Shown: positions 1,261 through 11,361 of the stretch, one piece after another
Layout of the letters: each line of letters begins with the position of its first letter
Position numbering within the stretch: the stretch's first letter is position 1
Virus genome (UHGV): UHGV-0806597
DNA: 11,361 bases
Strand: one strand, 5' to 3'
Origin: a virus
The notes under the pieces: generated by a model
The model's database searches: none
What the model saw: the letters and a program-made list of their open reading frames with translations, nothing else
Told to the model about the DNA's origin: nothing
Made by a program: the position numbers and the translations under genes

Positions 1261-1968
1261 ATGAGTGCTATGTCAGAACGCCTATTATCCACCCTCAGTG
1301 CTATCCAAGCGCGGGATGAGGTCGCTCAAGAAGTCATGGAGAAGACCTCGCCTGTGGCTGGAAAGGATTACGATCCGGATACAGGCTTGTGGTTGGGTGA
1401 AAAGCCTGTGGGGTATGAGCCTGTGGTGTTTCCTCCTTCATTGGACCCAGAAGAGCTGAAGCCCAAGGAGTCTAAGGTTCCAGACTTCGAAGACACTGAT
1501 GCCACCACCGACTACAAACGCATCCGTGACACGACTTATGCCATGCAGGAAGCCACGATGTTCATGATGGGACAGGCAGCCAAACTTGCGACGACGACTG
1601 AAGCACCCCGCGCTTTCACAGTCTTCAAGGAGTTGGGTGAACTCATGCGCGGTCTGAACAAAGACCTGATGGAGAACCAGAAAACTATCAAGGCGGTCAC
1701 GGGCGACAGAGAGCCACCTCCTGGAGACGAAACAACCGTCGAGGTCACCACGTCCCCTGATGGCACAACCACGGTCAACGTCGGTAAACAGGCCAGGTCT
1801 TCTCGTGATCTACTGAAGACCATCGAAGACGCCCGTAAACGTGCTGAAGAACGTACTGCAGCGAAAGCTGCATCCAAAGGACCTGATCCCGAAGAAGATG
1901 TAATCGACGTTCAGGCGGAGCCACAGCCGAAGGAAGAAGGTGAAGACGATGGCGTATCAGAAACGTGA
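1261..1968 (+). CDS. terminase small subunit (gp16-like) with an extended acidic C-terminus
   Basis: GGAG at 1250-1253 lies 7 nt before ATG 1261 (the ORF track starts at TTG 1255). The central region (...YKRIRDTTYAMQEATMFMMGQAAKLATTTEAPRAFTVFKELGELMRGLNKDLMENQK) matches the pattern I recall for T4 gp16. It overlaps the large terminase start by 29 nt, as genes 16/17 do in T4. Confidence 0.65.
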   Translation: MSAMSERLLSTLSAIQARDEVAQEVMEKTSPVAGKDYDPDTGLWLGEKPVGYEPVVFPPSLDPEELKPKESKVPDFEDTDATTDYKRIRDTTYAMQEATMFMMGQAAKLATTTEAPRAFTVFKELGELMRGLNKDLMENQKTIKAVTGDREPPPGDETTVEVTTSPDGTTTVNVGKQARSSRDLLKTIEDARKRAEERTAAKAASKGPDPEEDVIDVQAEPQPKEEGEDDGVSET

Positions 1969-4159
1969 TGTAGAATACGCCCCGCTCAAGACGGGGTTTA
2001 AGACAGAAGACGTCAGACTGCGTATGGACCAAACGTTCATGCGCAAGCCGTCTGTGCGCGCTCCTCGAGTGGAGTTGATGCTAACAGATGAGCAGGAATC
2101 GGAGTTCGTCGAGTGTGCGATGGACGCCCATTACTTCGCCGCCAACTACTACAAGATCACGACCATCGATAAAGGCTTCATCCTCTTTGACATGCACGAT
2201 TATCAGAAGCAGTTGTTCCATGACTTCCAGGACTATCGATTCAATGTGGTCGTCCAGGCTCGTCAGTCTGGGAAATGTGTAAAAGGTGACACGCTTGTCA
2301 CAGTTTACGATACTCTCAGCCAAGAGGAGTTGATCCTGACCATAGGGGAGCTTCACAGCCGCTTTGAGGACGTCAACCACGCTGTGCCGCTGAATACCAT
2401 TGGCAACCATGACAAGTTCGTGGACAGCCGCTTCGGCAAACGTTACTTTGTACAATCCGATAGTGGCTGGGTTCCGGTTATCGCAGCGCATAAGACGAAG
2501 AAATATGCGGAATTCGTTATTGTGACTGTTACTGGGCGGCGAATTAACGTGGCCGATGAACATATGTTCTTCACTCCGGAAATGAAGGAGATATTTGCCA
2601 AAGACCTGAATGCTGGGTCATACATCATGACGTCAGAAGGTCCAGAAGAAATCCGTGAGATTTGGCAGACTGGTGAAATGCATCACATGTATGACCTACA
2701 GGTGAAATCTAGTGATCAGCGCTACTACACCAACGGCTTCCTCAGCCACAACACGACAGTTGTGGCAGCGTTCCTGCTCTGGTATGCAATGTTCCACTCC
2801 GACAAAGAGATCGCAGTACTGGCGAACAAAGAGAAGCAGGCGATTGAAATCCTAGATCGTATTCGCAAAGCATATCAAGATTTGCCATTCTTCCTCCAAC
2901 AGGGTTGTGAGAAGTTCGGTTCCACGCTGATAGAGTTCGAAAACGGATCAAAGATCTACGCCTATGCGACATCTTCCGACTCCATCCGTGGTCGATCTGT
3001 ATCGCTCCTGTATGTGGACGAAGTGGCGTTCATCGAAAACGACTTTGAGTTCTGGGAGTCTACATTCCCGGCGATTGCATCTGCGGATACTTCACGTTGT
3101 ATCTTGACCAGTACGCCGAAAGGTCAGCGCGGGTTGTTCTACGACATCGTCACCAAGGCGAATCCAGAACATCCACAATACAACGACTTCAAACTCACAG
3201 AGGTTCCATGGTATCGTGTTCCAACATACACCAAGGATCCGAACTGGGAATCCAAACAGAGGGCGAAGCTGGGCGATGCACGTTTCGATCAAGAATTTGG
3301 CATTAAGTTCCGTGGTTCTGTAGGATCGCTGATACCTGCCAAGTGTCTAGACAAGATGACCTCGAAACTCTATCAGGAGCCGAACGAGTTCACCAAGATC
3401 TACCACGATTACGATCCGAAGCGCATCTACATGGGTATCGCCGATACAGGCAAAGGTGTGGAGGGGGATTACTCTGTTCTGACCATCTTGGATATCACAG
3501 ACTATCCTCACAAGATTGCAGCCAAGTATCGGAACAACACGATACCTCCAATGATGTACGCGTACACAATCGCCGATATGGGCGAGAAGTATGGAACGTG
3601 TCCGATGCTAGTCGAGACCAACAACGACGTGGGTGGTCAGGTAATCACAATTCTATACCAGGAAATTGAATATCCCGAGATCATATTCACTACAACAGAT
3701 ACCAAGGGTACAGGCAAGAGAATCGGTGGTCGCCGCCCTGAGCCTGGTATCAATACCAACAAGAAGGTGCGCACAAACGGCTGCGCCAACCTGAAAGCCC
3801 TGATTGAACGTGAAATGCTGGTGATAGATGACCAGGACACGATAGATGAACTCAGTACATTCGTATGGACTGGGACAAGGTATGAAGCCGATGATGGTTG
3901 TCATGATGACTGTGTAATGCCTCTTGTGCTGTATGCATGGGCGGTGAAACAAGAATGGTTTAGTGACCTCACCAACTCCAGTATCTCAGTTGACATGAGA
4001 GGACGGTTGTCTGCGATGGAAGAATCACAGATGCTACCATTTGGAGGTATGATGTCGACGCCAGATCCTCACTCTGTGGAGAACATCCCAGGGTTCGGTG
4101 GAATTCAGGTTTATGATGAACGCTCTGGTATGTCTATGGAAGAATGGCTGAGACGGTGA
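1940..4159 (+). CDS. terL: terminase large subunit (gp17-like ATPase/nuclease), 739-aa precursor containing a 159-aa mini-intein; predicted spliced product 580 aa
   Basis: With the intein removed, the Walker A reads VVQARQSGK|TTVVAAFLLW (T4: SRQLGKTTVVAIFLAHF). Walker B is LLYVDEVAFI, the coupling motif is ILTSTPKG, the nuclease motifs are IADTGKG...DYSVLTILD and HDDCVMPLVLYAW (T4: HDDLVMSLVIFGW). Collinear with T4 gp17 as I recall it. Confidence 0.95.
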   Translation: MKTMAYQKRDVEYAPLKTGFKTEDVRLRMDQTFMRKPSVRAPRVELMLTDEQESEFVECAMDAHYFAANYYKITTIDKGFILFDMHDYQKQLFHDFQDYRFNVVVQARQSGKCVKGDTLVTVYDTLSQEELILTIGELHSRFEDVNHAVPLNTIGNHDKFVDSRFGKRYFVQSDSGWVPVIAAHKTKKYAEFVIVTVTGRRINVADEHMFFTPEMKEIFAKDLNAGSYIMTSEGPEEIREIWQTGEMHHMYDLQVKSSDQRYYTNGFLSHNTTVVAAFLLWYAMFHSDKEIAVLANKEKQAIEILDRIRKAYQDLPFFLQQGCEKFGSTLIEFENGSKIYAYATSSDSIRGRSVSLLYVDEVAFIENDFEFWESTFPAIASADTSRCILTSTPKGQRGLFYDIVTKANPEHPQYNDFKLTEVPWYRVPTYTKDPNWESKQRAKLGDARFDQEFGIKFRGSVGSLIPAKCLDKMTSKLYQEPNEFTKIYHDYDPKRIYMGIADTGKGVEGDYSVLTILDITDYPHKIAAKYRNNTIPPMMYAYTIADMGEKYGTCPMLVETNNDVGGQVITILYQEIEYPEIIFTTTDTKGTGKRIGGRRPEPGINTNKKVRTNGCANLKALIEREMLVIDDQDTIDELSTFVWTGTRYEADDGCHDDCVMPLVLYAWAVKQEWFSDLTNSSISVDMRGRLSAMEESQMLPFGGMMSTPDPHSVENIPGFGGIQVYDERSGMSMEEWLRR
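2276..2752 (+). other. mini-intein (Hint domain only, no homing-endonuclease domain) inserted between Lys and Thr of the terminase Walker A motif
   Basis: Begins with Cys (CVKGDTLVTV, block A-like) and ends ...MHHMYDLQVKSSDQRYYTNGFLSHN followed by Thr at +1 (blocks F/G-like, terminal His-Asn). Excising residues 113-271 restores a canonical GKTT P-loop. At 159 aa it is too short to carry an endonuclease domain. Confidence 0.85.
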
Positions 4160-6186: not shown

Positions 6187-6885
6187 ATGATCGGAAGTGT
6201 TTACAAAATTACAAATCTAGTCAATCAGAAAGCCTATATCGGTATCACCACAAGAGACCCAAGCCATAGGTGGTGGGAACATTGTAACAGCGCTCGAAAT
6301 GGTTCCGACTACGGTATCCATCAAGCTATTCGCAAGCACGGTGAAGAATCATTCTCGTTCCAAGTGATTGCCCAGACCAAGTCCATAAAAGATCTTAAAG
6401 AATTAGAGATCATCCTGATCAAGCAGCATGACACCCACATGTCAACTCAGAAAGGGTACAACAAAACTTGGGGCGGTGATGGTGCAACATTCACTGGCAA
6501 GACCGGCGCTATTGATGCATCGACCGGAGAGCGTATCGGCCTCGTAGACTGTGATGACCCTAGATGGTCGACAGGAGAGATAATACACTGCAAGGTCGGG
6601 GTCAAGCGTTCTTTCTCAAAGAGCCTGTCTGAATTCGCCAAAGCAAGAACCGGATCCAAGAACTCCAACGCCAAGCGATTCAAATTAGTATCTCCTTCCG
6701 GCGAAGAACACGAAATCCACGGGAACTGTCGTGAATATGTGGAGAGGTTGGGACTTAAATATTCAGCACTCTATGATTACATCGACAAGGGTATTCCAGT
6801 TCCACCACCGTCTGTGTATCATAGGAAAACTGCGACCGCAGAGCGTTTGAATACGACGGGTTGGCAGCTAATTAGAATTGTGTAA
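6187..6885 (+). CDS. free-standing GIY-YIG homing endonuclease (Seg / I-TevI-like)
   Basis: The N-terminus GSVYKITNLVNQKAYIGITTRDPSHRWWEH...IHQAIRKHGEESFSF...LKELEIILIKQH...YN has the GIY-(10-11 aa)-YIG spacing and the conserved Arg, Glu and Asn of the GIY-YIG fold. The C-terminal region (CDD...HCKVG; EHEIHGNCREYVERLGLKYSALYDYI) looks like a DNA-binding extension. It is inserted between the sheath and tube genes and has only a weak RBS. Confidence 0.85.
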   Translation: MIGSVYKITNLVNQKAYIGITTRDPSHRWWEHCNSARNGSDYGIHQAIRKHGEESFSFQVIAQTKSIKDLKELEIILIKQHDTHMSTQKGYNKTWGGDGATFTGKTGAIDASTGERIGLVDCDDPRWSTGEIIHCKVGVKRSFSKSLSEFAKARTGSKNSNAKRFKLVSPSGEEHEIHGNCREYVERLGLKYSALYDYIDKGIPVPPPSVYHRKTATAERLNTTGWQLIRIV

Positions 6886-7504: not shown

Positions 7505-8317
7505 ATGGCATTCGGTAATGGTGCATTCGGAAATGGGTTCTTCGGCCTGTTCGGTAGAGGCGGCAAAGTAGAAGCGCCGATTGATACCGACAAGATGGTC
7601 ACGAACCAAGAAGAGAAGTTGCTTTCAAAAGCGACTGTTGTTGCGCTGGACGATTCTCAGGATGGTTCCATCATCCTCCAGGGCGGCGCGAACACATTCA
7701 ATTTCGTTGGTGTTGAGAATGAGTTGCTCAACGTCAAACAGCTGGTCGAAGAGTACCAGTCTATGGCTCAGCAGCCTGAGATTCGTAAGGCTGTGGATAT
7801 CATTGTCAACGATATCGTCACCTGTGAAGAGGATGAGACTCCTGTAACCATCAACCTGGAAAAGGTAGATGGCATCACAAACGAAGTCAAAGAAAAGATC
7901 ACTGACGCATTCAAAGAGATCATGCATCTCCTTGACTTTGACAACACGGCGTATCAGAAGATCCGCAAATGGTATATTGAAGGCCGTCAGGCATTCCACG
8001 TTGTAGTGGACCCGAAGAACAAGAAAGCGGGTATCGCCAAACTCATCATGATGGACTCACGCTGTATCCGCCCAGTGTACATCGTTCAAAAGGCGATGCG
8101 CGACGGTATCGAAGTCATCAATGACGTAAAACTTCAATACTACTACAACCCGAACTACAACCGCAACCAATTCACTGGCCAGTCCGGAACGTCTCAGAAC
8201 TTCCAACCGTCACAGCAAGAGCTGGTGTTTGATGATGAGAGCATAGTGTATCTGGACAGTGGTGAAGAGCCTCTGGCGAATGGGGTTGTGCCAAGCCTGC
8301 CGAAGCGACGATTATAG
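7505..8317 (+). CDS. portal protein (gp20-like), N-terminal fragment only (~265 native residues, then 5 foreign residues PKRRL and a stop)
   Basis: NTAYQKIRKWYIEGRQAFHVVVDPKNKKAGIAKL matches T4 gp20 [32 protein letters not shown] as I recall it. The frame ends 17 nt past the inverted-repeat boundary at 8300; the rest of the portal is on the - strand at 10386-11361. Confidence 0.85.
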   Translation: MAFGNGAFGNGFFGLFGRGGKVEAPIDTDKMVTNQEEKLLSKATVVALDDSQDGSIILQGGANTFNFVGVENELLNVKQLVEEYQSMAQQPEIRKAVDIIVNDIVTCEEDETPVTINLEKVDGITNEVKEKITDAFKEIMHLLDFDNTAYQKIRKWYIEGRQAFHVVVDPKNKKAGIAKLIMMDSRCIRPVYIVQKAMRDGIEVINDVKLQYYYNPNYNRNQFTGQSGTSQNFQPSQQELVFDDESIVYLDSGEEPLANGVVPSLPKRRL

Positions 8318-9138
8318 TCGGCCAACTGACGCTTGATAGATTCTTTCAGCTCTTTGTCTGTTTCATCTTCATCGTCATCTTCATCGCCTTCTTTCTTAGG
8401 CTTTTTGCCTTCGGCTTTAACATCTTTGTTGTCGTCATCGCCGTCTTTACCGCCGACTTTGTCCTGGAAGTCATCGTCATCGTCATCACCTTCTTTCTTC
8501 ACGGACTTACCTTCTACCAGGTTGCGGAAGGTGTGTACGCGGGAAGCGAATTCGCTTTCGGTGGTGAACTGCACAGCTTCCAGCAGATTGACAACCGTTG
8601 CTTTCTTGGTGTCGACCATACCTTCACAGACACGGGCGATCACAGAGTCACGCAGAGTCGCATTCGCGGCTTCTTTGATTTGACGGTTTTCGCTTTCGGC
8701 AATCGCAGCACGTCGTTCTGCTTCGGTCAGGCGGGCAGTCAGCGCAGCGATCTGGCCGTTTTCGTCGGTGGCAAAGTTAATACCAGCTTCTTTCAGAACA
8801 CCAGTCAGGCCAGTCAGCAGATTTTCAGCCGCTTCACGTTTGATCTGAGCATCGATTGCAGGAGCGTTCTTGTTAGCCCACTCTTCTACAACAGCATTCA
8901 GGAAGCCATCGACTTTGGTCGCGATTTCCATCAAGTGAGACTCTTTCAGCTGAGCAATCTCAGCCTGATGAGCTTCAACCAGACGCAGGCGCTCAATATT
9001 GGCAGCGTTTTCGGTTTCTTGAATAGCGGTCAGGCGAGCGGCTTCTACTTTAGATTCCAGCAGACCAGACACTTTATCCAGGAAGTCGGTGCTGAGGCCG
9101 TTAACGCCCTCAAACAGTTTTTGCAATTCAGGTTTCAT
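8194..9138 (-). CDS. prohead core scaffold protein (gp22-like); the C-terminal ~36 codons run antisense through the portal fragment and are probably not native
   Basis: AAGGAAA lies 6 nt before ATG (9138-9136). The protein is highly charged and helical-looking with a poly-Asp/Glu tract (EGDDDDDDFQD...GDEDDDEDETDKE). It follows the protease gene as gp22 follows gp21 in T4. After ...KRQLADYNRR the frame crosses the repeat junction at 8300/8301 and gives unrelated sequence (FGRLGTTPFARGSSPL...). Confidence 0.7.
   Translation of the reverse strand: MKPELQKLFEGVNGLSTDFLDKVSGLLESKVEAARLTAIQETENAANIERLRLVEAHQAEIAQLKESHLMEIATKVDGFLNAVVEEWANKNAPAIDAQIKREAAENLLTGLTGVLKEAGINFATDENGQIAALTARLTEAERRAAIAESENRQIKEAANATLRDSVIARVCEGMVDTKKATVVNLLEAVQFTTESEFASRVHTFRNLVEGKSVKKEGDDDDDDFQDKVGGKDGDDDNKDVKAEGKKPKKEGDEDDDEDETDKELKESIKRQLADYNRRFGRLGTTPFARGSSPLSRYTMLSSSNTSSCCDGWKF
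8224..8300 (+). repeat. left arm of a 77-bp perfect inverted repeat (portal codons ...VFDDESIVYLDSGEEPLANGVVPSL)
   Basis: Base-by-base comparison: 8224-8300 equals the reverse complement of 11285-11361 at every position. Identity ends at 8301 (c, versus t expected). Confidence 0.95.
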
Positions 9139-9165
9139 GATTGTTTCCTTCTGAACGATTTTCAG

Positions 9166-9174
9166 TATTTAGTG
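9166..9174 (-). promoter_or_regulatory. candidate late-promoter -10-like element CACTAAATA upstream of the scaffold gene
   Basis: The - strand reads CACTAAATACTGAAAATCGTTCAGAAGGAAACAATCATG, placing the 9-mer 27 nt upstream of the scaffold ATG. It is identical to the 9-mer upstream of the sheath gene. Confidence 0.35.
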
Positions 9175-9183
9175 AGGCTGAAT

Positions 9184-9852
9184 TCAGCCCAGATGTTTCA
9201 ATGCGATATCGAGGCGGCGCAGGAAGTCGTCTTCTAACTGAATATTGGTTTTCACCAATGAATCGACCACATGCCCCTTAATGTCCTTAGGAACCCAAAT
9301 TCCTGAAGATTCATCAAGCTGCCATTCCACAGATTCGCTCACAGCCTTTACATAACAAACTTGTCCAGAAGGACGGTCGACTGCATCAACAGCAGTGAGC
9401 ATAAAGCCGGGTTGAACGTCATCATAGCCGTTCACTGACTTGGTCTCACCAAGGCCACGTGTAGACACGGCCAGGTTGAAGTCTGCTTCAGCCAGAGCAC
9501 GAATGATCTGACCTTTCGGTGTATTCAGGATCCGCGCTCGACCGATAGCGTTGGTGCCTTCCCAGCGCAAAGATTCGGTTTTGAGTGCAGCGTGTTCGAT
9601 ATCGGGGAAAGGATAATCCGGATGCTTGAGTTCACCGATTGCACGACGATCCTGGATATACTCTTTGTCGTATGCTTCGACAGCAGGGATACCCACCTTT
9701 TGGAGATCGTAGTTGCGACCATTACGGTTCACCTGGTTACACATCACGAATGGACCTTCGATGTACATGGCTTTGCCGCCAGTAGCCGTGGCCGCTTCAC
9801 CAATCTGAAGGTCTTTCCCTATCGCAGTGATCTCACGCAACAGTTTCATCAT
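9184..9852 (-). CDS. prohead protease (gp21-like)
   Basis: AAGGAG precedes tandem ATGs at 9852 and 9849; the second has the better spacing. Motifs GELKHPD and LAVSTRGLG match what I recall of the T4 gp21 / prohead-protease family. Position between gp68-like and scaffold genes is as in T4. Confidence 0.8.
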   Translation of the reverse strand: MMKLLREITAIGKDLQIGEAATATGGKAMYIEGPFVMCNQVNRNGRNYDLQKVGIPAVEAYDKEYIQDRRAIGELKHPDYPFPDIEHAALKTESLRWEGTNAIGRARILNTPKGQIIRALAEADFNLAVSTRGLGETKSVNGYDDVQPGFMLTAVDAVDRPSGQVCYVKAVSESVEWQLDESSGIWVPKDIKGHVVDSLVKTNIQLEDDFLRRLDIALKHLG

Positions 9853-9859
9853 TCGCTCC

Positions 9860-10165
9860 TTAACTCAGCCCCATCATACGACGGAACTTCATTGCTTTTT
9901 TCTTACGACGCTCGATTTTGCGCTGGTATCCCATACCCATGCGTTTCTTGGCTCGGATCGCCTTGCGGTTGCCCAGCTTGCGAGTACGGCGCTCACTGGC
10001 GACCATCACCTCACAACGGGAACCATCCGCAGACAGTTTGAAACCAGGAGCACACTGCAGACGGCGACGGCGTTTGCCTTTTGCGTTCACCTTGTCAATG
10101 ACTTTCTGCTCATCCATGCGGGAAGCCAGGAAATCAGCGAACGTTGCAACTTCTTCGATTTCCAT
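9860..10165 (-). CDS. prohead core protein (gp68-like), very basic C-terminal half
   Basis: GAGGAA lies 6 nt before ATG (10165-10163). 101 aa with an Arg/Lys-rich tail (KGKRRRRL...RKKKAMKFRR). Its TAA stop sits immediately upstream of the protease SD. Assignment rests on size, composition and the T4 order 67-68-21. Confidence 0.55.
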   Translation of the reverse strand: MEIEEVATFADFLASRMDEQKVIDKVNAKGKRRRRLQCAPGFKLSADGSRCEVMVASERRTRKLGNRKAIRAKKRMGMGYQRKIERRKKKAMKFRRMMGLS

Positions 10166-10177
10166 GATACATTCCTC

Positions 10178-10348
10178 TTACTGGTCGTCGCCGAAAGGAC
10201 CCATGTCTTGGCTCAGGGAGTTCAAGACATATTCAGTACCCTGCTGGACCAGTTCTTGGGCGCGAGCGGACAGCTCCATTTCGCATTCAGCAGCAGCGGC
10301 ATCAGTATCACCAGCGATGATTGCTTTTACCAGATCGATAGCAGCCAT
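10178..10348 (-). CDS. small acidic prohead core protein (gp67-like)
   Basis: GAGGA lies 7 nt before ATG (10348-10346). The ORF track extends it to a GTG at 10399, which would overlap the portal stop. Small, acidic (ends ...MGPFGDDQ), directly downstream of the portal C-terminal fragment as gene 67 follows gene 20 in T4. Confidence 0.5.
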   Translation of the reverse strand: MAAIDLVKAIIAGDTDAAAAECEMELSARAQELVQQGTEYVLNSLSQDMGPFGDDQ

Positions 10349-10385
10349 GTTCATATCCTCTAAATGTTTTCTATACTTAGTCGAA

Positions 10386-11361
10386 TTATTCTTCACCACC
10401 AGGAGGGTTAGTCGCTGGGATGACGTTAGGTCTGAATTTCAGTGGACTGACTTCCCCGCTGCCGAAGCCGCCGGACTCATCTGCCTGTACTTCAGGATAT
10501 TTGCCTTCTTTCTTCTCTTTCGCGATCTTCTCTTGCTGGTCTTTGATGTCTTCATCGGACATACGCAGCAAATTGCGTTGAGCAAAATCGATAGAGAAGA
10601 GAGTGCCGATATATGGTTCGATCTGACCGAGAGCCGCCATACGCTGTGACAAGATTTCGTTCTCTTGTTGTTCACGGATGAAGCTGTCAGAAGTGAATTC
10701 GAACTTGACGAACGGCTTGATCTTCTCATTCCAGTCAGCCTGATCTGTAATGCCTTTCAATATCAGCTGACGGCGCAGAAGTTCCAGGAAAATACCAGAA
10801 GAATAACGACGGCGCAGGCTCGCACAGAACTTGTTGAAGCGCAATTCTTCCTGTGTGATTTCAGCAAGATTGGAACCACCGATGTTGATGGAACCTTCCT
10901 CTTGCAGGCGGCTCTTAGGGATCATCAGAGCCTCGTAGAGCTTCTCGCGGAAGTATACCACATGATCCATTTGACCCAGTTGATCGCCACCGCCTACGTT
11001 GGAGATCTCGGTTGCGTTCTGCCCTTCGCGACGTGGTAGCCAGTAGTCCTCAGCGATACCCATCAAATGAGTGTTACCAGCCACCTTACCAGTGGTGCGA
11101 TCATACGCCAGACGGTTCTTGAATTTGCCCATCATGGCTTGCATGTATTCTTCGGCCGACTTCTTACCCAGCGTACCCACGTCGAGATAGAACGCTCGCT
11201 TCTCAGGAGCACGTGTGATCGCATAGATTACCGTTGCATCTTCAGTTGTAACAAGGTTGTTCAGGGGACGGATAGCCGGGTTCAGCAGGCTTGGCACAAC
11301 CCCATTCGCCAGAGGCTCTTCACCACTGTCCAGATACACTATGCTCTCATCATCAAACACC
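10386..11361 (-). CDS. portal protein (gp20-like), C-terminal portion; 5' end runs off the window
   Basis: ATVIYAITRAPEKRAFYLDVGTL...NRLAYDRTTGKV...EDYWLPRREGQNATE...LILKGITDQADWNEKI is collinear with T4 gp20 [23 protein letters not shown]...NRVVYDASTGKI...EDYWLQRRDGKAVTE...LLLKGIITEDEWNDEI as I recall it. The first 25 codons in the window are the inverted-repeat copy of the end of the + strand portal fragment. The 'M' at 11360 in the ORF track is just a GTG at the window edge. Confidence 0.85.
   Translation of the reverse strand, partial: VFDDESIVYLDSGEEPLANGVVPSLLNPAIRPLNNLVTTEDATVIYAITRAPEKRAFYLDVGTLGKKSAEEYMQAMMGKFKNRLAYDRTTGKVAGNTHLMGIAEDYWLPRREGQNATEISNVGGGDQLGQMDHVVYFREKLYEALMIPKSRLQEEGSINIGGSNLAEITQEELRFNKFCASLRRRYSSGIFLELLRRQLILKGITDQADWNEKIKPFVKFEFTSDSFIREQQENEILSQRMAALGQIEPYIGTLFSIDFAQRNLLRMSDEDIKDQQEKIAKEKKEGKYPEVQADESGGFGSGEVSPLKFRPNVIPATNPPGGEE
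11285..11361 (-). repeat. right arm of the 77-bp perfect inverted repeat (truncated by the window end, may be longer)
   Basis: The reverse complement of 11285-11361 is identical to 8224-8300. The match is still perfect at the last base of the window. Confidence 0.95.

What the first reader, a model, noticed from the sequence alone, without database searches (positions are those of the whole stretch)
2276..2752. Mini-intein inserted inside the Walker A P-loop of the large terminase
The terminase ORF reads ...VVQARQSGK | CVKGDTLVTV ... YYTNGFLSHN | TTVVAAFLLWYAMFH. The 159-aa insert starts with Cys, ends with His-Asn and is followed by Thr, which is the required intein chemistry. Removing it yields SGKTT, a canonical P-loop. 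The packaging ATPase cannot work until splicing occurs, so virion assembly depends on intein excision. It is too short for a homing-endonuclease domain, so any mobility would depend on a trans-acting nuclease; a free-standing GIY-YIG endonuclease lies 3.4 kb downstream.
Basis: partly seen in the sequence, partly recalled or inferred. Interest (0 to 1): 0.7.

Follow-up and report, generated by a model that had tools for sequence, protein, structure and literature searches.

The report
Known mini-intein in phage terminase P-loop
The phage's DNA-packaging motor gene really is interrupted, in the middle of its ATP-binding loop, by a small self-splicing protein element, but this same intein has been annotated and published in closely related ViI-like (Ackermannviridae) phages since 2013, so it is an ordinary member of a known kind.

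Summary
Window 2276-2752 (+) encodes a 159-aa insert (Cys1 ... His-Asn, then Thr) inside the T4-type large terminase gene (ATG 1949 to stop 4159). It passes the curated Pfam and NCBIfam intein thresholds and folds with high confidence (pLDDT 95) into a HINT domain whose best PDB matches are all inteins. Deleting it gives a gap-free match to T4 gp17 across SRQLGK|TTVVA. Intein-free, syntenic relatives carry exactly RQSGK|TTVVAAF.

It is not new. The same 477-nt intein is annotated in Salmonella phages Maynard and Marshall and Klebsiella phage Magnus, and is mentioned in four genome announcements. Lys|Thr in the P-loop is described as the "classic" intein site. Nearly every sequenced enterobacterial Ackermannviridae isolate has it.

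Two additions. Catalytic residues are invariant across a wide family of terminase P-loop inteins, and dN/dS is 0.04-0.18. The first ~400 nt of the intein is a recently exchanged patch: 97% identical to Kuttervirus CBA120, dS 0.10, against flanks with dS above 1.

The downstream GIY-YIG gene is real, but its presence and allele are independent of the intein. No evidence links the two. Splicing itself is inferred, not shown.

The parts
1949..4159 (+). Large terminase (TerL, T4 gp17-type) precursor gene, 736 aa plus stop. The true start is the ATG at 1949, which overlaps the end of the small-terminase ORF (1255-1968).
   Evidence: Pfam Terminase_6N 63 bits and Terminase_6C 28.3 bits. 97.4% nt identity to the annotated terminase large subunit of Salmonella phage vB_CECAV_050 and 96% to Agtrevirus-like AV101. 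All relatives start MAYQKRD.
1949..2275 (+). N-extein (109 aa), ending in the first half of Walker A: ...QARQSGK
   Evidence: Aligns to T4 gp17 ...NLSRQLGK. Identical junction in intein-free homologues P0015-P0019.
2276..2752 (+). Class-1 mini-intein, 159 aa, 18.3 kDa, a single HINT domain with no endonuclease domain
   Evidence: The same 477-nt element is annotated as mat_peptide 'intein' in Klebsiella phage Magnus and in Salmonella phages Maynard and Marshall.
2276..2278 (+). Block A: Cys1, nucleophile for the N-S acyl shift
   Evidence: Invariant in 24 of 24 family members at 26-79% identity and in all 33 inteins extracted.
2552..2563 (+). Block B: Ala93-Asp94-Glu95-His96. His96 is the conserved block-B histidine. 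The usual Thr of TxxH is Ala in the whole family.
   Evidence: A93, D94 and H96 are invariant in alignment A2.
2687..2704 (+). Block F: MYDLQV, with the conserved Asp140
   Evidence: M138 and D140 invariant, L141 nearly invariant.
2741..2752 (+). Block G: Leu-Ser-His158-Asn159 (penultimate His, terminal Asn that cyclises)
   Evidence: L156, S157, H158 and N159 are invariant.
2753..4156 (+). C-extein (468 aa), starting with the +1 nucleophile Thr, which is also the Walker A Thr (GK|TT), followed by the rest of the ATPase and the RNaseH-like nuclease domain
   Evidence: The +1 residue is Thr in 31 and Ser in 2 of the 33 inteins extracted.
2233..2677 (+). Recently exchanged patch: about 43 nt of N-extein plus the first about 400 nt of the intein. 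It is shared at about 97% identity with Kuttervirus CBA120/PhaxI-type phages of another subfamily. The 3' breakpoint is sharp at 2677/2678. The 5' edge lies somewhere in 2198-2273.
   Evidence: Segment identities and sliding window. dS 0.10 inside the patch against 1.37 (N-extein) and saturated (C-extein). Mismatch positions. Protein-level outlier P0005.
6187..6885 (+). Free-standing GIY-YIG homing-endonuclease gene (232 aa) between the tail sheath and tail tube genes. It is a separate selfish element and is not shown to be linked to the intein.
   Evidence: Pfam GIY-YIG 35.6 bits. PHROG homing-endonuclease families, E 7e-37. Present, absent or allelic independently of the intein.

Best explanation
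The window comes from an Ackermannviridae (Agtrevirus/AV101-like) phage. Its T4-type large terminase is made as an 84.6-kDa precursor. In this precursor a 159-aa class-1 mini-intein separates Lys and Thr of the Walker A motif (RQSGK|TT). The inferred pathway is the canonical four-step splicing reaction. Cys1 makes a thioester at the N-junction. The +1 Thr attacks it to form a branched ester. Asn159, assisted by His158, cyclises to release the 18.3-kDa intein. An O-N shift then leaves a normal peptide bond, recreating the contiguous P-loop of a 577-aa TerL. Only the spliced protein can bind ATP and package DNA. The intein has no endonuclease domain and is essentially fixed in sequenced enterobacterial members of the family. 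It is therefore inherited mostly vertically as a tolerated, selection-maintained passenger. Its variable central part is occasionally swapped between co-infecting phages by homologous recombination, which can use the conserved intein 3' end and the exteins as homology arms. Shown here: the insertion, the fold, residue conservation, empty-site alleles, purifying selection and the recombinant patch. Inferred: actual splicing, its kinetics and the recombination mechanism.
For: Profile hits above curated cut-offs. High-confidence HINT model (pLDDT 95.1) whose 50 best PDB matches are all inteins or BIL domains (VidaL E 6e-11, Npu DnaB, gp41-1, RadA at TM 0.79). The spliced sequence aligns gap-free to T4 gp17 across SRQLGKTTVVA. 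Intein-free homologues of 575-581 aa have RQSGK|TTVVAAF on fully syntenic 118-kb contigs. At least 33 of the 120 listed TerL cluster representatives carry an intein at exactly this site, all starting with Cys and ending SHN|T or SHN|S. C1, H96, D140, H158 and N159 are invariant at 26-79% identity. Intein dN/dS is 0.04-0.18. There are 279 phage records with this intein at 60% identity or more, against 277 records with a junction peptide at 80% identity or more, so it is fixed among isolates, and these are viable plaque-forming phages. The same element is annotated and published in Maynard, Marshall, Mooltan and Magnus. K|T is called the 'classic' P-loop intein insertion, and TerL inteins from five other insertion sites (TerL1-b, -c, -e, TerL6-f, Pham3880-g) were shown to splice in mycobacteriophages.
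Against: No splicing experiment on this intein family was found in the literature searched. The canonical block-B Thr is Ala and the block-F His is Gln in this lineage, and the +1 nucleophile is Thr, so kinetics could be slow or conditional. The TerL gene is mosaic elsewhere too: the window/Ag3 N-extein has dS 1.09 against 0.42 for the C-extein. The intein patch may therefore be one ordinary recombination tract rather than anything specific to the intein.
Confidence: 0.93

Rival explanations
1. The mini-intein is still actively mobile. Its spread and allele replacement would be driven by a trans-acting free-standing homing endonuclease that cuts at or near the TerL P-loop site ('collaborative homing'). 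Candidates are the GIY-YIG gene at 6187-6885, or the HNH gene found between terS and terL in some relatives.
For: The intein lacks its own nuclease. A roughly 445-nt patch centred on the intein 5' part is shared between two subfamilies at dS 0.10, against more than 1 in the flanks. Empty-site alleles exist in nature. Free-standing homing-endonuclease genes cluster in this module: GIY-YIG between sheath and tube, and HNH between terS and terL in Ds25CZ and KFM-TASP06. The general concept is established for introns and split inteins (discussed).
Against: GIY-YIG presence does not track the intein: Ag3 and VAP7 are intein-positive but have no GIY-YIG at the sheath/tube locus. The same intein allele sits with GIY-YIG alleles only 42% identical, 232 aa against 152 aa. 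There is no HNH gene next to terL in the window or in CBA120. The patch has one end inside the intein rather than co-converting both exteins. Other parts of TerL are mosaic as well. The GIY-YIG gene lies 3.4 kb away.
Confidence: 0.08
2. The intein is retained because it acts as a post-translational switch. Conditional splicing, responsive to temperature, redox state, DNA or partner proteins, would delay activation of the packaging ATPase/nuclease until late in infection.
For: The position in the catalytic P-loop makes activity strictly dependent on splicing. The element is fixed across a whole clade and under purifying selection. A slow Thr+1 nucleophile and a non-canonical block B (AxxH) are family-wide. 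Conditional splicing of P-loop inteins has been proposed and partly shown for other proteins (discussion quoted; P. horikoshii RadA from my own knowledge).
Against: Close syntenic relatives and most T4-like phages do without it. The intein has only one Cys, so no disulfide trap is possible. Fixation plus purifying selection is equally expected for a nuclease-less parasite that cannot be deleted imprecisely from an essential site. There are no experimental data.
Confidence: 0.07
3. The insert is not a splicing element but a degenerate or domesticated HINT-like insertion that stays in the mature terminase.
For: The block-B Thr and block-F His are not canonical. No direct splicing evidence exists.
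Against: An unspliced 159-aa domain between Lys and Thr of Walker A would destroy the ATP site, which is essential in T4 gp17 (established knowledge). Every residue needed for the chemistry is invariant across distant members. Intein-free alleles have an uninterrupted P-loop.
Confidence: 0.02

Closest known systems
TerL intein of ViI-like / Ackermannviridae phages, as annotated in Salmonella phages Maynard (NC_022768) and Marshall (NC_022772) and Klebsiella phage Magnus (MN045230), and mentioned for Mooltan
   Same: Same gene, same GK|TT site, same length (477 nt, 159 aa) and same phage family. 75-78% aa identity to those annotated copies. 100% identity to the unannotated copy in Enterobacter phage fGh-Ecl02 and 97-98% to CBA120, PhaxI and GG32.
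   Different: The differences are an allelic sequence difference and a mosaic 5' part. The published notes do not state the P-loop position, the mini-intein status or any splicing test.
Mycobacteriophage TerL1-a intein (Kelley et al. 2016, PMC5050341)
   Same: [quoted passage not shown] Splicing is argued to be required for ATPase activity and pentamer assembly.
   Different: The host protein is Terminase_1, not the T4-type Terminase_6. In that study the only Terminase_6 intein sat in the C-motif (site f). No significant sequence relationship was tested here. Endonuclease domains were identified, and cleavage shown, for the TerL1-b and TerL1-c inteins of that study.
Related P-loop inteins in other T4-type terminases: Vibrio phage VAP7, Campylobacter phages CP20/CP21 (and vB_CcoM-IBB_35, cited by the Maynard paper), Agrobacterium jumbo phage Atu_ph07, and many metagenomic TerLs
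   Same: For VAP7 and the metagenomic TerLs, the same site and a homologous intein: 26-43% identity, shared ...MYDLQV...RYYTNG(F/I)LSHN|T motif and invariant catalytic residues. For the Campylobacter and Agrobacterium phages, only similarity of the intein within the terminase gene was seen; their junctions were not examined.
   Different: Sizes of 150-183 aa, with a few of 422-447 aa that have no recognisable endonuclease. Different phage lineages.
Structurally characterised mini and split inteins: VidaL (6vgv), Npu/Ssp DnaB, gp41-1 (6qaz), P. horikoshii RadA (4e2t/4e2u)
   Same: HINT fold, TM 0.66-0.79, Foldseek E down to 6e-11. Weak direct sequence hits to the Cat consensus intein, VidaL and gp41-1. 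From my own knowledge, RadA is also a P-loop GK|T insertion with Thr+1.
   Different: 12-27% sequence identity. Different host proteins. Two extra short helices (residues 23-43) in the N-lobe of this intein.
Seg-type free-standing GIY-YIG homing endonucleases of T4-like phages
   Same: The 6187-6885 gene has the GIY-YIG catalytic domain, matches SegE-like and PHROG homing-endonuclease families, sits in an intergenic slot between essential genes, and is present or absent among close relatives.
   Different: No target site is known, and nothing ties it to the intein.

Membership tests
Intein (HINT-domain protein-splicing element), class 1 | In-frame insertion in a host protein whose precise removal restores a contiguous conserved host sequence | tested here: met
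   The spliced sequence aligns gap-free to T4 gp17 over SRQLGKTTVVA. Intein-free homologues P0015-P0019 read RQSGK|TTVVAAF, and the nucleotide junctions were compared.
Intein (HINT-domain protein-splicing element), class 1 | HINT fold / intein profile match | tested here: met
   Pfam PF14890 36.2 bits (cut-off 35.8) and TIGR01445 25.9 bits (cut-off 24.5). AF2 pLDDT 95.1. The 50 best PDB matches are all inteins or BIL domains.
Intein (HINT-domain protein-splicing element), class 1 | Residue 1 is Cys or Ser (block A nucleophile) | tested here: met
   Cys1, invariant in the family.
Intein (HINT-domain protein-splicing element), class 1 | Block B TxxH motif | tested here: inconclusive
   His96 is present and invariant, but the Thr is Ala (ADEH) in all 24 members. 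This is a family-wide variant, and its functional consequence is not tested.
Intein (HINT-domain protein-splicing element), class 1 | Block F Asp, and block G penultimate His plus C-terminal Asn | tested here: met
   D140, H158 and N159 are invariant.
Intein (HINT-domain protein-splicing element), class 1 | The +1 extein residue is Cys, Ser or Thr | tested here: met
   Thr at 2753-2755. Thr or Ser in all 33 inteins extracted.
Intein (HINT-domain protein-splicing element), class 1 | Actual self-catalysed excision with extein ligation | not testable with these tools
   The only support is indirect. About 280 viable phage isolates carry it in an essential P-loop, and dN/dS is 0.04-0.18.
Mobile (homing) intein with its own endonuclease | LAGLIDADG, HNH or other endonuclease domain between blocks B and F, or a nested endonuclease ORF | tested here: not met
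   Only 36 residues lie between blocks B and F. The model is a single HINT domain. There are no other Pfam hits, and the overlapping antisense ORFs 2081-2563, 2443-2628 and 2742-2972 have no Pfam hit at E of 1 or less.
Classic P-loop (GK|T/S) intein insertion site | Insertion between the invariant Walker A Lys and the following Thr/Ser, which serves as the +1 nucleophile | tested here: met
   QSGK|TT aligned to gp17 QLGK-TT. The definition is quoted from PMC5050341.
T4-type large terminase (Terminase_6, gp17-like) | N-terminal ATPase plus C-terminal RNaseH-like nuclease, homologous to gp17 | tested here: met
   PF03237 63 bits and PF17289 28.3 bits. 3ezk/3cpe E 3e-72 over residues 28-517.
Collaborative homing (nuclease-less element mobilised by a free-standing homing endonuclease) | Endonuclease gene co-distributed with the element | tested here: not met
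   Ag3 and VAP7 are intein-positive and GIY-YIG-negative at the sheath/tube locus. The same intein allele occurs with 42%-identical GIY-YIG alleles.
Collaborative homing (nuclease-less element mobilised by a free-standing homing endonuclease) | Endonuclease cleaves the element-free allele at or near the insertion site | not testable with these tools
   This needs a cleavage assay on an empty-site allele such as L009:7001-8746 or L011:1660-3390.
Free-standing GIY-YIG homing endonuclease | GIY-YIG catalytic domain, intergenic position, and presence/absence polymorphism among close relatives | tested here: met
   PF01541 35.6 bits. phrog_314 E 7e-37. Absent in Ag3 and L009/L010, and a 152-aa allele in CBA120, Vi01 and Magnus.

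The most novel reading that the evidence does not exclude
A nuclease-less mini-intein that is fixed in a phage family may nevertheless behave as a swappable cassette. Its variable first ~400 nt moves between subfamilies (Agtrevirus-like and Kuttervirus) much more recently than the surrounding terminase gene. This could be because double-strand breaks made by free-standing homing endonucleases of the packaging/tail module (GIY-YIG, or the HNH next to terL in some relatives) are repaired from a co-infecting phage. That would be trans-mobilisation of an intein.
Probability: 0.08. Interest if true: 0.55.

Novelty: already known. Interest (0 to 1): 0.2.

Why it matters
It matters mainly for annotation. 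Most of the roughly 280 Ackermannviridae records label this gene simply 'terminase large subunit', and a 2024 family review held in the library does not contain the word 'intein'. TerL is a standard phylogenetic marker, and here 22% of it is an element with its own, partly horizontal, history. That history would distort TerL trees if the intein is not removed. Biologically, the intein makes packaging-motor activity strictly dependent on protein splicing. It is also a compact (159 aa), Cys1/Thr+1, block-B-variant phage intein that has not been characterised experimentally and could interest protein engineers. None of this is conceptually new.

Tried and rejected
(1) The intein alone as query in the big protein database gave only 2 hits, because of the word-index limit. 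The full precursor had to be used instead.

(2) Klebsiella phage KFM-TASP06 looked like a possible intein-free or variant allele, with only 12% coverage. It is a partial record with runs of N and does contain the intein.

(3) I checked for a nested or antisense endonuclease ORF of the kind described for non-canonical actinophage inteins. ORFs 2081-2563(-), 2443-2628(-) and 2742-2972(-) have no Pfam hit, so this was rejected.

(4) I checked whether the large (422-447 aa) inteins at the same site in metagenomic TerLs carry a homing endonuclease that would reveal the family's original nuclease. Pfam finds none, so this is inconclusive.

(5) I looked for a compositional signature of recent foreign origin. 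GC is 0.47-0.51 in the intein and 0.49-0.51 in the flanks, so there is none.

(6) The link between the GIY-YIG gene and the intein was rejected on distribution.

(7) PHROGs has no family for the intein.

(8) The first two Python attempts to read L002 failed because loci are stored in grouped files.
Full report
**Observation.** ORF 1940-4159 (+) is the only long ORF over the region. They begin with Cys, end with His-Asn, are preceded by ...VVQARQSGK and are followed by TTVVAAFLLWYAMFH. All relatives begin at the ATG at 1949 (MAYQKRD...). The precursor is therefore 736 aa (84.6 kDa), the insert is residues 110-268 (18.3 kDa), and the spliced product is 577 aa (66.3 kDa).

**Is it an intein?**
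- On its own the insert passes the curated thresholds of Pfam Intein_splicing (36.2 bits against 35.8) and TIGR01445 intein_Nterm (25.9 against 24.5). It has sub-threshold hits to the intein C-terminal model and to PT-HINT.
- Direct sequence search of the PDB gives weak hits, and only to inteins: Cat consensus intein, Pab CDC21-1, VidaL and gp41-1.
- An AlphaFold2 model built on a 24-sequence family alignment has mean pLDDT 95.1 and pTM 0.87. It is an all-beta HINT horseshoe with two short extra helices at residues 23-43.
- Foldseek against the PDB returns 70 matches at E of 0.001 or less. The top 50 are all inteins or the related BIL domain (VidaL E 6e-11; Npu and Ssp DnaB, gp41-1, RecA, RadA at TM up to 0.79).
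- There is no room for an endonuclease domain, with only 36 residues between blocks B and F, and no other Pfam domain. The antisense ORFs overlapping the intein have no Pfam match. It is a mini-intein.

**Is the insertion clean and in the P-loop?**
- With the insert removed, the protein aligns to T4 gp17 structures 3ezk/3cpe at E 3e-72. The alignment has no gap across vqaRQsGKTTVVAaFL / nlSRQLGKTTVVAIFL. The intein therefore sits between the Walker A Lys and Thr.
- A database search with the precursor found 763 homologues. Among the 120 listed cluster representatives, 43 have an uninterrupted ...GK|T... site. These include five close relatives (P0015-P0019, 575-581 aa, 73-85% identical over the aligned 60-64% of the query) that read RQSGK|TTVVAAFLLW.
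- At least 33 representatives have an intein of 150-447 aa at exactly this site. Each starts with Cys and ends SHN, followed by Thr (31) or Ser (2).
- P0016 lies on 118-kb contigs with the same gene order as the window (gp13, gp14, gp15, TerS, TerL, sheath, tube, portal...). Intein-free Ackermannviridae-like phages therefore exist in nature. The empty-site DNA is 71-73 of 90 nt identical to the window's joined flanks.

**Conservation and selection.** In a 24-member alignment (26-79% identity to the window intein) the invariant positions are C1, A93, D94, H96 (block B), M138, D140 (block F), T152 and L156-S157-H158-N159 (block G). The usual block-B Thr is Ala throughout the family. The block-F His seen in distant members is Gln in the enterobacterial clade. 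Pairwise dN/dS for the intein is 0.04-0.18, weaker constraint than the exteins (0.00-0.07) but clearly purifying. Base composition is not distinct from the flanks.

**Whose genome, and is it known?**
- The TerL gene is 95-97% identical to AV101-like Aglimvirinae phages (vB_CECAV_050, LHE287, A221, AV101, fGh-Ecl02). It is 76-89% identical to Agtrevirus Ag3, Limestonevirus, Kuttervirus, Taipeivirus and Serratia phages. Of 247 records, 243 cover at least 80% of the gene in one piece and so include the intein.
- tblastn with the intein finds 310 phage records, 279 of them at 60% identity or more. A junction-spanning extein peptide finds 277 records at 80% identity or more, and the 40 best are all split by exactly 477 nt. 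The intein is thus essentially fixed among sequenced isolates of this clade.
- It is already annotated. Klebsiella phage Magnus has 'terminase large subunit precursor' with a 477-nt mat_peptide 'intein' at the homologous position. Maynard and Marshall carry an 'intein' feature, and their intein protein is 78% identical to the window's.
- Kelley et al. [quoted passage not shown] They show that several TerL inteins splice efficiently and argue that splicing is needed for ATPase activity and pentamer assembly.
- None of these reports gives the P-loop position or a splicing test for the Ackermannviridae intein. A 2024 family review in the library has no occurrence of 'intein'.

**What the tools add: a mosaic intein.**
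- A seven-genome alignment of TerL shows three divergent intein alleles: window/AV101/CBA120, Ag3/Limestonevirus and Vi01/Magnus. These alleles do not follow the extein relationships.
- Window against CBA120 (a different subfamily): 97.2% identity over intein nt 1-393, but 84.7% in the N-extein, 79.8% in the last 84 nt of the intein and 72-82% in the C-extein.
- Window against Ag3 (same subfamily): the mirror image, 74.6% in the 5' intein and 96% in the 3' intein.
- Synonymous divergence between window and CBA120 is 0.10 inside the patch, against 1.37 in the N-extein and saturation in the C-extein.
- The 3' breakpoint is sharp at alignment column 729/730 (window 2677/2678). The 5' edge lies 3-78 nt upstream of the intein. 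At protein level PhaxI (P0005) is the only outlier among twelve cluster representatives.
- The simplest reading is recent homologous recombination between co-infecting phages. The conserved block F/G region and the exteins would serve as homology arms.
- The rest of TerL is also patchy: window/Ag3 dS is 1.09 in the N-extein against 0.42 in the C-extein. I therefore do not claim an intein-specific mechanism.

**The GIY-YIG gene.** ORF 6187-6885 is a genuine GIY-YIG homing-endonuclease gene between tail sheath and tail tube (Pfam 35.6 bits; PHROG homing endonuclease E 7e-37). Its distribution is independent of the intein:

| Phage | Intein | Between sheath and tube |
|---|---|---|
| Ag3 | yes | nothing |
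| VAP7 | yes | nothing |
| Limestonevirus Ds25CZ | yes | an unrelated reverse-strand ORF |
| CBA120, Vi01, Magnus | yes | a 151-152-aa GIY-YIG gene |
| L009/L010 | no | nothing |

The CBA120 GIY-YIG protein is 42% identical to the window's 232-aa protein, although CBA120 shares the window's intein allele. Nothing therefore links this nuclease to the intein. It is a second, separate selfish element, as the Mooltan note already says.

**Mechanism.** The best-supported explanation is canonical class-1 splicing: Cys1 thioester, attack by Thr+1, Asn159 cyclisation, O-N shift. This regenerates the Walker A loop of a T4-type packaging ATPase. The element is maintained by purifying selection, because any imprecise loss or splicing defect is lethal. 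That packaging depends on splicing follows from the position in the P-loop and from established knowledge that the gp17 Walker A residues are essential. It is inferred here, not shown. Rivals are given with low probabilities: trans-mobilisation by a free-standing nuclease, a regulatory conditional-splicing switch, and a non-splicing HINT remnant.

**Verdict.** The finding is real and correctly interpreted, but it re-discovers an element already annotated and published for this phage family, at an insertion site already described as classic. Novelty: already known. Interest is low (0.2). It is raised slightly by the cassette-like exchange of the intein's 5' part between subfamilies and by the absence of any biochemical characterisation.

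Noticed in passing
window 8224-11361: The window is not colinear with its relatives. The portal (gp20) gene starts at 7505 (+) and is broken at about 8304. From there to the window end the DNA is the reverse complement of the downstream region of AV101 (99% identity). As a result the scaffold (8194-9138), the prohead protease (9184-9852) and the C-terminal two-thirds of portal (10386-11360) lie on the minus strand. The last 81 nt (11281-11361) are an inverted copy of 8224-8304. This looks like an assembly or chimera artefact, or a deliberate rearrangement, because it disrupts an essential gene.
   Followed up: partly
window 6187-6885; L003:9891-10349; L005:9168-9247: The GIY-YIG homing-endonuclease slot between tail sheath and tail tube is polymorphic. 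It holds 232 aa (with a C-terminal extension) in the window and AV101, and 151-152 aa (CBA120's is 42% identical to the window's protein) in CBA120, Vi01 and Magnus. It is empty in Ag3, VAP7 and the intein-free L009/L010 contigs.
   Followed up: yes
L007:4809-5687 (Dickeya phage Ds25CZ); L002:4024-4956 (Klebsiella phage KFM-TASP06): Some relatives have an HNH-type homing-endonuclease gene (phrog_655, E about 1e-59) inserted between the small and large terminase genes, about 330 nt upstream of the intein site. It is absent from the window and from CBA120.
   Followed up: partly
P0052, P0056, P0059 (Vibrio phage VP-1), P0085: In these TerL homologues the ORF runs from the ATPase domain, after the motif FDQE(F/Y)xC, straight into a GIY-YIG endonuclease domain instead of the nuclease domain. 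The terminase gene is therefore interrupted or split by a homing-endonuclease gene (an intron or genes-in-pieces). Three of the four also carry the P-loop intein.
   Followed up: no
P0050 (838 aa, metagenomic TerL): This TerL carries two inteins. One is at the P-loop (RQAGK|C...SHN|TT). The second is just before Walker B (IRGKS|CVVGDT...VSHN|CALLYLDE) (read from the sequence).
   Followed up: no
P0054, P0060, P0061 (and probably P0063, P0069): These have 422-447-aa inserts at the same GK|T site. The extra, partly low-complexity sequence lies in the N-lobe, before the KF(V/I)DS motif, rather than between blocks B and F. Pfam finds no endonuclease domain. This could be read-through of a nested element.
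   Followed up: partly
phage collection record OR844942.1: A record named 'Enterococcus phage Efm 3-10' (111 kb, unannotated) carries an Ackermannviridae TerL with the intein, 83% nt identical to the window. It is probably a mislabelled or contaminated record.
   Followed up: no
window 1940-1951: The mechanical ORF starts at GTG 1940, but all relatives start at ATG 1949 (MAYQKRD). This start overlaps the 3' end of the small-terminase ORF (1255-1968) by 20 nt.
   Followed up: yes
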